From Escherichia coli (GTDB lineage: Bacteria; Pseudomonadota; Gammaproteobacteria; Enterobacterales; Enterobacteriaceae): a stretch of DNA of 64,000 nucleotides. Each line of letters begins with the position of its first letter. Within the stretch, counting starts at the first letter, position 1. The notes under the pieces were generated by a model. It had not been told where the DNA came from and ran no database searches. It worked only from the letters and a program-made list of their open reading frames with translations. Made by a program: the position numbers and the translations under genes. The stretch lies in assembly GCF_016026235.1 (NCBI RefSeq), contig NZ_CP065614.1; one strand, 5' to 3'. Below are positions 20,275 to 20,360 of the stretch, in pieces.

Positions 20275-20360
20275 GGTGTATCCATTGGGTATCCATATAG
20301 TATCCTTTGGGCTTTTAATGGATATCTTTTAAGTATCTAACAAACATCCTGGGTTATCTC
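20275..20360. promoter_or_regulatory. Phased RTATCY box array (candidate partition-protein binding site / centromere-like or operator site)
   Basis: TATC occurs at 20279, 20290, 20301, 20323 and 20334, in exact 11-bp register. CATC occurs at 20345 and TATC at 20355. Confidence 0.5.

What the first reader, a model, noticed from the sequence alone, without database searches (positions are those of the whole stretch)
20275..20360. Helically phased TATC box array between the small parA and its partner gene, with the same motif as palindromes at both operon borders
Seen:
- In the 86-bp parA-partner intergenic region, TATC starts at 20279, 20290, 20301, 20323 and 20334, in exact 11-bp register with one slot empty.
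- CATC starts at 20345 and TATC at 20355. The extended consensus is RTATCY.
- The same motif forms the palindrome GGATATCC at 19566-19573, upstream of parA.
- It also forms the perfect inverted repeat CAGATACC-ttaag-GGTATCTG at 20675-20695, just after the partner gene.

Established knowledge: type Ib systems such as ParF/ParG use small ribbon-helix-helix proteins that bind arrays of short tetramer boxes serving as both operator and centromere.

Inference: this array is the binding site of the 102-aa protein. Placing the densest array between the two genes, rather than upstream of parA, is unusual and may imply a separate promoter or autoregulation of the partner gene.
Basis: partly seen in the sequence, partly recalled or inferred. 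Interest (0 to 1): 0.55.

Follow-up and report, generated by a model that had tools for sequence, protein, structure and literature searches.

The report
Phased centromere boxes, R64-type parAB operon
The 86-bp gap between a small plasmid-partition ATPase gene and its 102-aa partner gene is one of four arrays of a GGATATCC-like box repeated every 11 bp; these arrays are most likely the partner protein's binding sites (centromere and operator) in the so far uncharacterised partition cassette of the IncI1 prototype plasmid R64, which makes this a well-supported but fairly ordinary member of a known class.

Summary
Every coordinate checks out. The 86-bp parA-partner spacer has the second-strongest 11-bp periodicity in the 64-kb window.

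It is not an isolated array. A weight matrix trained only on the spacer boxes finds in-phase boxes in three other places:
- 3 boxes upstream of a conserved promoter-like site (U1);
- 8 boxes between that site and the parA start codon (U2);
- about 8 boxes just after the partner gene (D).

The box itself is a degenerate palindrome.

The cassette is identical in protein sequence to the ParA/102-aa pair of plasmid R64. It occurs in about 1,300 PLSDB plasmids. It is not the characterised pESBL ParAB/GATAACAA system, pB171 par2, or ParF/ParG.

All 13 homologous loci examined (Enterobacterales, Vibrio, Aeromonas) have an 11-bp-phased array in the same spacer. The box sequence changes where the partner protein's putative DNA-reading strand changes.

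Best reading: a type Ib partition locus whose small, probably ribbon-helix-helix, protein coats phased boxes. The geometry resembles R1 parC.

A separate promoter in the spacer is not supported. Binding and partition function are inferred, not shown. I class it as a new member of a known kind, of modest interest.

The parts
19476..19505 (+). Array U1: 3 boxes on an 11-bp period (GGATATCT 19476, GGATATAT 19487, CGGTATTT 19498), upstream of the putative -35.
   Evidence: In-phase scores with a matrix trained on the spacer boxes are 9.1, 7.3 and 2.9 bits, against an out-of-phase mean of -4.5 (MWU p = 7e-4). 19470-19482 forms a perfect 13-nt inverted repeat with 19567-19579.
19515..19544 (+). Putative parA promoter: TTGACA (19515-19520), 18-nt spacer, TAAAAA (19539-19544). 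It lies in the 38-bp gap between U1 and U2.
   Evidence: TTGAC and TAAAA are invariant in an alignment with loci whose partner protein is 63-84% identical. The consensus scan did not call it because the -10 lacks the final T. This is an inferred promoter, not a mapped one.
19544..19628 (+). Array U2: 8 boxes in exact 11-bp register (starts 19544, 19555, 19566 [GGATATCC], 19577, 19588, 19599, 19610, 19621). It ends at the parA Shine-Dalgarno sequence and ATG.
   Evidence: In-phase mean is 5.4 bits against -5.4 out of phase (MWU p = 3.3e-6). It ranks 2nd among phased 6-unit arrays in the 64 kb. Lag-11 z = 5.1 for the upstream 170 bp.
19630..20274 (+). parA: 214-aa small Walker-type ATPase with deviant Walker A KGGVGKT at residues 10-16.
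   Evidence: Pfam AAA_31, MipZ and CbiA; NCBIfam ParA_partition E = 1.6e-14, below its cut-off. Same protein accession as R64 ParA, WP_001144036.1.
20275..20360 (+). Array I (the finding): 8 units of 11 bp filling the whole parA-partner spacer. Boxes start at 20276, 20287, 20298, [20309 degenerate], 20320, 20331, 20342 and 20352 (shifted by -1).
   Evidence: The box columns (GG..TC) are the invariant columns in the alignment with diverged homologues. No RNA structure (z = -0.14). No Rfam hit. No promoter-like site.
20361..20669 (+). Partner gene: 102-aa protein with a conserved N-terminal basic helix, a variable disordered linker, and a conserved C-terminal strand-helix-helix region. It is the putative centromere-binding protein.
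   Evidence: Alignment A1. AlphaFold2 model with helices 3-19, 63-74 and 79-97, and residues 26-46 at pLDDT < 50. No Pfam, NCBIfam or PDB sequence match. Same accession as the R64 protein, WP_000030199.1. Often mis-annotated as 'molecular chaperone GroEL'.
20676..20760 (+). Array D: 8 units of 11 bp after the partner gene (AGATACCT 20676, GGGTATCT 20687, GTGTGTCT 20698, [20709 degenerate], GGGGATTC 20720, ACGTACCT 20731, GAGTCCCC 20742, AGACATCT 20753).
   Evidence: In-phase mean is 3.3 bits against -5.3 out of phase (MWU p = 7.5e-5). It ranks 3rd among phased arrays in the window. Lag-11 alone is weak here (z = 1.5), but the homologous arrays in L006 and L008 give z = 5.7 and 4.2. An internal 24-nt imperfect palindrome is centred at 20734/20735.
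20672..20708 (+). Hairpin formed by the first two D boxes (ATCAGATACC-TTAAG-GGTATCTGAT), followed by GTGTGTCTTTT. This is a possible intrinsic terminator of the parA-partner operon.
   Evidence: The terminator-like scan hits it. RNA fold gives -16.3 kcal/mol, z = -3.3. A comparable hairpin is absent from L006 and weak in L005, so the terminator role is uncertain.

Best explanation
The spacer is one of four arrays (U1, U2, I, D) of binding boxes for the 102-aa partner protein of a type Ib (small Walker ParA) plasmid partition cassette. This is the cassette carried by the IncI1 prototype R64.

Proposed mechanism:
- Each box is a degenerate 8-bp palindrome (GGATATCC). Boxes are spaced 11 bp centre to centre, about one helical turn, so dimers of the partner protein would line up on one face of the DNA and bind cooperatively.
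- The partner protein is probably a ribbon-helix-helix dimer, with a C-terminal DNA-binding domain, a flexible linker and a basic N-terminal helix that contacts ParA.
- The protein-coated arrays form the partition complex (centromere). This complex stimulates and follows nucleoid-bound ParA-ATP.
- U1 and U2 bracket the parA promoter and give autorepression. This is the layout of R1 parC (two blocks of 11-bp iterons around the promoter), but attached to a Walker ATPase.
- The spacer array I is a conserved extra block of the same complex inside the operon. It enlarges or pairs with the flanking arrays. Because it lies inside the transcription unit, it may also act as a roadblock that couples partner-gene expression to partner-protein occupancy.

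Shown: the motif, its phasing, its confinement to the non-coding parts of the operon, its conservation of position across the family, and the motif change between subfamilies.

Inferred: that the partner protein binds the boxes, its fold, the centromere and operator functions, and any roadblock effect.
For: - Coordinates and enrichment are verified. Lag-11 periodicity gives z = 4.1 for the spacer and 5.1 upstream. These regions rank 2, 3 and 5 of all 86-bp windows in 64 kb.
- A matrix trained only on the spacer boxes detects in-phase boxes in U2, U1 and D (p = 3e-6, 7e-4, 7.5e-5). Random controls behave nominally: 1% reach p < 0.01 and 0 of 500 reach p < 0.001.
- I, U2 and D are the three best phased arrays in the window, scoring 46.5, 32.9 and 29.6 against a next best of 17.5.
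- All 13 homologous loci have an 11-bp-phased array in the parA-partner spacer. They include IncF, I-complex and small mobilisable plasmids of Enterobacterales, and Vibrio and Aeromonas plasmids, with partner-protein identity from about 40% to 84%.
- Within each locus the upstream, spacer and usually downstream arrays share the same over-represented 5-mers. The motif differs between subfamilies: GGATA/GTATC, GGAAA/AATCC, GTACA. It tracks the residues preceding helix 1: KAKNLKAIPLSY, RTKTLKAIPTTY, KQKRIPNLPCSY.
- The arrays occur with or without a neighbouring integrase or ParM.
- The partner protein has the type Ib centromere-binding layout: conserved N-terminal helix, variable disordered linker, conserved C-terminal two-helix domain preceded by an extended segment. 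A flexible N-terminal tail plus an RHH domain not detectable by sequence is described as typical for type Ib proteins (PMC3074162).
- ParA has the deviant Walker A motif and hits ParA-type families.
- Precedents: R1 parC has 5+5 11-bp iterons around a 39-bp promoter gap, with one ParR dimer per iteron (PMC2241845). TP228 parH is an array of degenerate boxes (PMC3130281). The pESBL ParB binds octamer arrays on both sides of its operon (PMC7602700).
Against: - There is no experimental binding or stability data for this cassette. I found no paper on it in the held library.
- Boxes are degenerate. A strict GGATATCC search with up to 2 mismatches gives only modest enrichment upstream and in the spacer, and none downstream.
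- The cross-locus matrix test of motif specificity was noisy, and the GGATATCC and GGAATCC groups cross-score.
- Downstream arrays are absent in the Vibrio parahaemolyticus (L013) and Aeromonas (L015) loci, so array D is not universal.
- The adjacent ParM/StbB system could be the main partition system of these plasmids.
Confidence: 0.8

Rival explanations
1. The spacer contains a separate promoter plus operator, so the partner gene is transcribed and autoregulated independently of parA. It is analogous to pSM19035, where both delta and omega have their own omega-bound repeat arrays.
For: An 86-bp gap is long for an operon. In other enterobacterial type Ib loci parA and parB overlap. The gap is conserved at 41-105 bp in all homologues. 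A few homologues (L006, L008, L016) have moderate -35/-10 matches, reached by 7-10% of shuffles. The pSM19035 arrangement is recalled from my own knowledge; it was not retrieved in the text I read.
Against: The consensus scan finds no promoter-like site in 20275-20360. The best -35/-10 combination in the window spacer is matched or beaten by 87% of shuffles. The alignment with homologues whose partner protein is 63-84% identical shows conservation only at box positions, not at a common -35/-10. The upstream promoter-like element, in contrast, is invariant.
Confidence: 0.15
2. The downstream palindrome at 20673-20697 is primarily an intrinsic terminator of the operon, not a protein-binding site.
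For: The terminator-like scan hits it: a 12-pair stem followed by TGTGTCTTTT. RNA folding gives -16.3 kcal/mol, z = -3.3. It lies 3 nt after the stop codon.
Against: Its two arms are two adjacent boxes in the same 11-bp register as six further in-phase boxes downstream. Homologues have direct-repeat box arrays at this position without a comparable hairpin (L006), or with a weak one (L005). The U-tract is short and interrupted. The two roles are not exclusive.
Confidence: 0.35
3. The boxes are sites for a neighbouring protein instead: the tyrosine recombinase upstream (a res site) or the ParR/StbB protein of the adjacent ParM system.
For: An integrase gene precedes parA in I-complex plasmids and in L008/L016. 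ParR-type proteins are known to bind 11-bp iterons (PMC2241845). A ParM/StbB pair lies 400 bp downstream.
Against: Loci with no integrase and no ParM nearby keep the arrays (L005, L007, L013, L014, L015). The region just upstream of parM has its own, different repeats: TGTTTTTATATTGCATTT twice, plus TTGCAT inverted repeats. The box motif changes in step with the partner protein sequence.
Confidence: 0.03
4. The periodicity is compositional (phased A/T tracts giving bent DNA), or reflects an RNA element in the parA-partner mRNA, with no specific protein site.
For: T-runs are phased with the boxes. R1 parC is intrinsically curved (PMC2241845). [quoted passage not shown]
Against: The conserved columns are the GG..TC box cores, not the A/T spacers. 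The same 8-bp motif recurs in three other arrays and nowhere else in the 64 kb. The RNA fold is no better than shuffles (z = -0.14). There is no Rfam match. Curvature would complement protein binding rather than replace it.
Confidence: 0.03

Closest known systems
R1 ParMRC centromere parC (type II)
   Same: 11-bp repeat period. Two blocks of repeats bracket the operon promoter: a 38-bp gap here against 39 bp in R1. In R1 about one dimer binds per 11-bp unit, and the site is both operator and centromere (PMC2241845).
   Different: The motor here is a Walker-type ParA, not actin-like ParM. The 102-aa protein does not match the ParR/StbB family PF10784, whereas the neighbouring 138-aa protein does. 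There are two further arrays here, in the spacer and downstream.
TP228 ParF/ParG/parH (type Ib)
   Same: A small Walker ATPase is followed by a small protein with a flexible N-terminal tail and a C-terminal DNA-binding domain. An array of short degenerate boxes serves as centromere and operator (PMC3130281; PMC2262945).
   Different: No detectable sequence similarity to ParG (hhalign probability 0.1%), and ParF is not among PDB hits to ParA. The sites are 8-bp palindromic boxes on an 11-bp period, not tetramers with AT-rich spacers. Arrays also occur between and after the genes.
pB171 par2 (ParA/ParB, parC1 + parC2; type Ib, part of a double par locus with ParMR)
   Same: Repeat-bearing regions lie on both sides of the operon. 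It sits next to a ParM/ParR system.
   Different: ParA is only 19% identical (E = 4e-4), and ParB shows no similarity. parA and parB overlap, so there is no spacer array. The repeats are different hexamer-type motifs (ATCACA/ACTTCA-like). The ParMR operon is divergent rather than tandem.
pSM19035 delta/omega (type Ib, Firmicutes)
   Same: From my own knowledge, an RHH protein binds repeat arrays in front of both the ParA (delta) gene and its own gene, and the arrays double as centromeres and operators. At least four contiguous repeats are needed for ATPase activation (PMC9499535).
   Different: Those are contiguous 7-bp heptads in mixed orientation, not 11-bp-spaced boxes. Delta and omega are separate transcription units with mapped promoters. 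There is no sequence similarity to omega.
pESBL ParAB-parS (octamer GATAACAA), the characterised I-complex type Ib system
   Same: It occupies the same plasmid backbone slot, next to impB/umuC. It has a small ParA, a ~100-aa ParB without recognisable motifs, and arrays on both sides of the operon. EMSA shows one complex per repeat (PMC7602700).
   Different: The proteins are unrelated: ParA WP_000587689 and the hp7 ParB. The repeats are contiguous 8-bp units. parA and parB overlap. There is no GATAACAA cluster in this window.

Membership tests
Type Ib plasmid partition locus | Small (~200-220 aa) ParA with deviant Walker A (KGGxxK[ST]) and no N-terminal HTH domain | tested here: met
   214 aa, with KGGVGKT at residues 10-16. 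Pfam AAA_31, MipZ and CbiA. NCBIfam ParA_partition E = 1.6e-14 over its full length, though below the curated cut-off.
Type Ib plasmid partition locus | Small centromere-binding protein encoded immediately downstream of parA on the same strand | tested here: met
   102-aa ORF at 20361-20669, 86 bp after parA. The pairing is conserved in all 13 homologous loci.
Type Ib plasmid partition locus | [quoted passage not shown] | tested here: inconclusive
Type Ib plasmid partition locus | Arrays of short repeated sites next to the operon, overlapping the promoter | tested here: met
   Arrays U1, U2, I and D. U1 and U2 bracket the conserved TTGACA-18-TAAAAA element.
Type Ib plasmid partition locus | Specific binding of the small protein to the repeats; plasmid stabilisation and incompatibility by the locus | not testable with these tools
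TP228 ParF/ParG family | Sequence homology of the partner to ParG and of the ATPase to ParF | tested here: not met
   hhalign of A1 against ParG gives probability 0.1%; the ParG sequence was verified against PDB entry 1P94. phmmer of ParA against PDB at E <= 0.001 returns only a Soj, not ParF.
pB171 par2 family | Homology of ParA and ParB to pB171 ParA and ParB | tested here: not met
   BLASTP against the pB171-type locus L019 gives ParA 19% identity (E = 4e-4) and no hit for ParB.
pESBL ParAB-parS | hp7-type ParB and clustered GATAACAA octamers | tested here: not met
   The partner sequence differs from hp7 (its primers encode M(V)RNRANTSP...). There is no cluster of GATAACAA in the window. 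pESBL-EA11 lacks this cassette.
R1-type ParMRC (type II) | Actin-like ParM motor and ParR (PF10784) adaptor acting on 11-bp iterons | tested here: not met
   The iteron geometry matches. But the cognate genes are a Walker ATPase and a protein with no PF10784 match. A genuine ParM/StbB pair lies separately at 21082-22471.
R64 'parA-yegA' cassette (I-complex parAB_R64 type) | Identity to the R64 ParA and 102-aa proteins and the same gene order (integrase-parA-102aa-parM-stbB-impB side) | tested here: met
   Same RefSeq protein accessions, WP_001144036.1 and WP_000030199.1, in R64 and in the window's best match. 99.1% DNA identity to IncI plasmids over 3 kb.

The most novel reading that the evidence does not exclude
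The array inside the operon, not the flanking ones, is the family's core feature. It is present in all 13 loci examined, whereas downstream arrays are missing in some. It may do something the classical type Ib layout does not. One possibility is a partner-protein-dependent roadblock or loop between the parA-flanking arrays that sets the ParA:partner ratio. Another is that it is the primary centromere, built with the 11-bp one-face geometry so far associated with actin-type (ParR/parC) systems. That would make this a Walker-type system using a type II-style segrosome.
Probability: 0.25. Interest if true: 0.5.

Novelty: new member of a known kind. Interest (0 to 1): 0.35.

Why it matters
This cassette is the ParA-type partition locus of R64, the reference IncI1 plasmid. 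tblastn found its partner protein in 1,335 PLSDB plasmids of E. coli, Salmonella, Klebsiella and Shigella. One survey counts the R64-type parAB in 48% of I-complex plasmids (PMC10286972).

Its partner protein has no family assignment and is widely mis-annotated as 'GroEL'. I found no description of its centromere.

A precise site map of about 27 boxes in four arrays gives ready-made probes for EMSA, ChIP and incompatibility-based plasmid curing. It also gives a clean test case for how box spacing shapes Walker-type segrosomes.

It does not overturn anything. The parts list and the likely mechanism are those of known type Ib systems.

Tried and rejected
- **Characterised IncI par system.** Rejected. 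The pESBL ParB (hp7) and its GATAACAA octamers are a different cassette occupying the same backbone slot.
- **Naming in PMC10286972.** By protein accession, pMS7163B, R621a and pESBL-EA11 share one ParA (WP_000587689), and R64 carries the cassette studied here. This does not match that paper's statement that pESBL carries parAB_R64. I relied on accessions.
- **pB171 par2 membership.** I rebuilt a pB171-type locus via the ParR sequence of PDB 2JD3 and rejected membership.
- **pMET1 'type Ib' lead.** It turned out to be a ParF/ParG locus and is unrelated.
- **Iterated 11-mer matrix.** It drifted to low information content and was abandoned.
- **Strict GGATATCC search with up to 2 mismatches.** Too rigid for degenerate boxes.
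- **Cross-locus matrix of motif specificity.** Too noisy for a clean covariation statement. It was replaced by per-locus 5-mer enrichment.
- **The search for related loci on genome contigs.** It returned only two identical loci.
- **Spacer promoter, RNA structure and Rfam.** All negative.

Full report
**1.

The parA ORF ends at 20274. The next ORF (102 aa) starts at 20361, leaving an 86-bp spacer.
- TATC starts at 20279, 20290, 20301, 20323, 20334 and 20355. CATC starts at 20345.
- GGATATCC is at 19566-19573 and CAGATACC-TTAAG-GGTATCTG at 20675-20695, exactly as reported.
- With 287 TATC on the + strand in 64 kb, about 0.39 are expected in 86 bp and six are seen (Poisson P about 3e-6).
- A motif-free test gives lag-11 autocorrelation z = 4.1 in the spacer, and 3.9 at lag 22. 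Coding controls show nothing at lag 11.
- Over all 86-bp windows of the 64 kb, the spacer ranks second for lag-11 identity. The region upstream of parA ranks third and fifth.

**2. The array is one of four**

Laid out in 11-bp rows, the region upstream of parA and the region after the partner gene show the same box in the same period. I trained a weight matrix only on the seven spacer boxes and asked whether in-phase positions elsewhere score better than out-of-phase ones.

| Array | Coordinates | Units | In-phase vs out-of-phase mean (bits) | MWU p |
|---|---|---|---|---|
| U2 | 19544-19628 | 8 | 5.4 vs -5.4 | 3.3e-6 |
| U1 | 19476-19505 | 3 | 6.4 vs -4.5 | 7e-4 |
| D | 20676-20760 | 8 | 3.3 vs -5.3 | 7.5e-5 |

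- Of 500 random 99-bp stretches, 1% reached p < 0.01 and none reached p < 0.001.
- In a scan of the whole window for six phased units, the spacer, U2 and D are ranks 1-3. Their scores are 46.5, 32.9 and 29.6, against a next best of 17.5 (mean -28, sd 9.9).
- The box scores on both strands with a 3-nt offset, so it is a degenerate palindrome, GGATATCC.
- The 38-bp gap between U1 and U2 holds TTGACA-18 nt-TAAAAA. This element is invariant in loci whose partner protein is 63-84% identical.
- A perfect 13-nt inverted repeat (19470-19482 / 19567-19579) brackets it.

**3. What the genes are**

- ParA is a 214-aa Walker ATPase with the deviant KGGVGKT motif.
- The 102-aa protein has no Pfam, NCBIfam or PDB sequence match.
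- An alignment of 33 homologues shows three parts: a conserved N-terminal segment (MSKxKFxEQAEKLKSLVGSARLQTS), a variable low-complexity linker, and a strongly conserved C-terminus (TKAKNLKAIPLSYFEAHAELKATSKTSLDFSSYIIEAIREKLERDGAIG).
- AlphaFold2 predicts helix 3-19, a disordered linker, and helices 63-74 and 79-97. This is the layout of type Ib centromere-binding proteins, which have a flexible tail plus a ribbon-helix-helix domain whose strand forms only in the dimer (PMC3074162).

**4. Where it comes from**

- The 3-kb segment is 99.9% identical to large E. coli mosaic plasmids (the best-matching record types as IncFIA) and 99.1% identical to many IncI plasmids.
- R64 carries the same order: integrase, ParA (WP_001144036.1), 102-aa protein (WP_000030199.1), ParM, StbB, impB. 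The same two accessions annotate the window's best match.
- tblastn finds the partner protein in 1,335 PLSDB plasmids.
- The characterised I-complex system (pESBL: Tn-seq, mini-F stabilisation, GFP foci, EMSA on GATAACAA octamers; PMC7602700) is a different cassette in the same backbone slot.
- I found no paper describing the sites of the R64-type cassette. The held library lacks most subscription journals, including the R64 genome paper.

**5. Comparative evidence**

I examined 13 homologous loci, with partner-protein identity from about 40% to 84%. They came from IncF and I-complex plasmids, small mobilisable Citrobacter and Enterobacter plasmids, Kosakonia, Cedecea, a metagenome contig, two Vibrio plasmids and an Aeromonas plasmid.
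- Every one has a 41-105-bp parA-partner spacer filled with 11-bp-phased repeats. For the 12 spacers tested (the 41-bp L014 spacer was only stacked in 11-bp rows), lag-11 z ranges from 2.7 to 6.0.
- In the alignment of spacers, the invariant columns are the GG..TC box cores.
- Within each locus the upstream, spacer and usually downstream arrays share the same enriched 5-mers. Across subfamilies the motif changes:
  - GGATA/GTATC in the window group;
  - GGAAA/AATCC in L008 and L016;
  - GTACA in L007 and L015.
- These changes go with changes in the segment preceding helix 1: KAKNLKAIPLSY, RTKTLKAIPTTY, KQKRIPNLPCSY, RKPKNLQIPEDLW. The sample is small and a matrix-based cross test was noisy, so I treat covariation as suggestive.
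- The arrays persist in loci with no integrase and no ParM nearby. That excludes those proteins as the binders.
- Downstream arrays are missing in the Vibrio parahaemolyticus (L013) and Aeromonas (L015) loci. The spacer array is therefore the more constant feature.

**6. Rival readings**

- **A separate promoter in the spacer.** The scan finds none. The best -35/-10 pair is beaten or matched by 87% of shuffles, and nothing promoter-like is conserved. It is not excluded, and only 5'-end mapping can settle it.
- **An RNA element.** The fold is no better than shuffles (z = -0.14), and there is no Rfam match.
- **The downstream palindrome as terminator.** It folds at -16.3 kcal/mol (z = -3.3) and is followed by a short U-tract. 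It may well double as a terminator, but homologues keep the boxes without the hairpin.

**7. Mechanism proposed**

- Dimers of the partner protein bind each box. The 11-bp spacing puts them on one DNA face and allows cooperative filaments, as for ParR on R1 parC. R1 parC has two sets of five 11-bp iterons around a 39-bp promoter gap, with about one dimer per iteron (PMC2241845).
- U1 and U2 would repress the parA promoter.
- All arrays together would form the partition complex. Its N-terminal tails stimulate nucleoid-bound ParA.
- The spacer array may add mass, pair with the flanking arrays, or impede RNA polymerase so that partner-gene expression falls when the protein is abundant.
- Only the sequence anatomy and its conservation are shown. 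Binding, fold, centromere activity and regulation are inferred.

**8. Comparison with known systems**

- It works like a type Ib locus and meets the testable defining features: a small deviant-Walker ParA, an adjacent small partner gene, and repeat arrays over the promoter.
- It is not a member of the ParF/ParG, pB171 par2, omega or pESBL ParAB families.
- In the pESBL-type, pND11_107 and pB171-type loci, parA and parB overlap. A box array between the genes is therefore unusual among enterobacterial systems. From my own knowledge, the nearest precedent is pSM19035, where arrays precede both delta and omega.
- The 11-bp iteron geometry with a promoter gap is that of type II parC.

**9. Verdict**

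This is a new, uncharacterised member of the type Ib kind, with a conserved intra-operon array as its twist. Interest is modest (0.35). It has practical value for IncI/IncF resistance-plasmid biology but carries no conceptual surprise.

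Noticed in passing
window 20850-21040: The region upstream of parM (start 21082) has its own repeats. 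There is an 18-nt perfect direct repeat, TGTTTTTATATTGCATTT, at 20857 and 20964. There are also inverted repeats TACATGCAATTTAT / ATACATTGCATGTA at 20948 and 21020. The region ranks 6-7 in the window for lag-11 periodicity. The motif (TTGCAT) differs from the ParB boxes. This is probably the parC site of the adjacent ParM/StbB (type II) system, so two centromere regions lie side by side.
   Followed up: partly
window 19470-19482 and 19567-19579: A perfect 13-nt inverted repeat, CCTTTCGGATATC / GATATCCGAAAGG, lies 84 nt apart and brackets the putative parA promoter. It suggests U1 and U2 are mirror-oriented around the promoter.
   Followed up: no
window 20361-20669 and its homologues in public records: The 102-aa partner protein is annotated as 'molecular chaperone GroEL', 'chaperonin' or 'molecular chaperone' in many GenBank and RefSeq records, although it has no chaperonin domain. 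This looks like a propagated mis-annotation.
   Followed up: no
literature versus loci L003, L009, L010, L012: By protein accession, pMS7163B, R621a and pESBL-EA11 share one ParA (WP_000587689.1), and R64 carries a different one (WP_001144036.1). PMC10286972 states instead that parAB of pMS7163B is absent from R64 and that pESBL carries parAB_R64. The naming in that paper does not match the accessions seen here.
   Followed up: partly
window 18764-19450: The tyrosine recombinase ORF upstream of parA is 228 aa here, against 259 aa for the R64 integrase in the same position. It is not listed as a CDS in the best-matching record, whose PLSDB gene table omits pseudogenes, and it is possibly 5'-truncated. 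Unrelated genes (M20 peptidase, DUF3100) lie to its left, so the par cassette sits at a mosaic junction.
   Followed up: no
window ~4270/43817, ~23248/52294, ~24270/62304: Motif hits recur at constant offsets of about 39.5 kb, 29.0 kb and 38.0 kb. This indicates several repeated elements in the window, probably IS copies. An IS91-family transposase is annotated downstream of stbB in the best-matching record, at about window 23100-24300.
   Followed up: no
window 20309-20319 and 20709-20719: Both the spacer array and the downstream array have one degenerate unit after the third box (a 3 + gap + 4-5 layout). The degenerate slot in the spacer is conserved in L004-L006. The reason is unknown.
   Followed up: no
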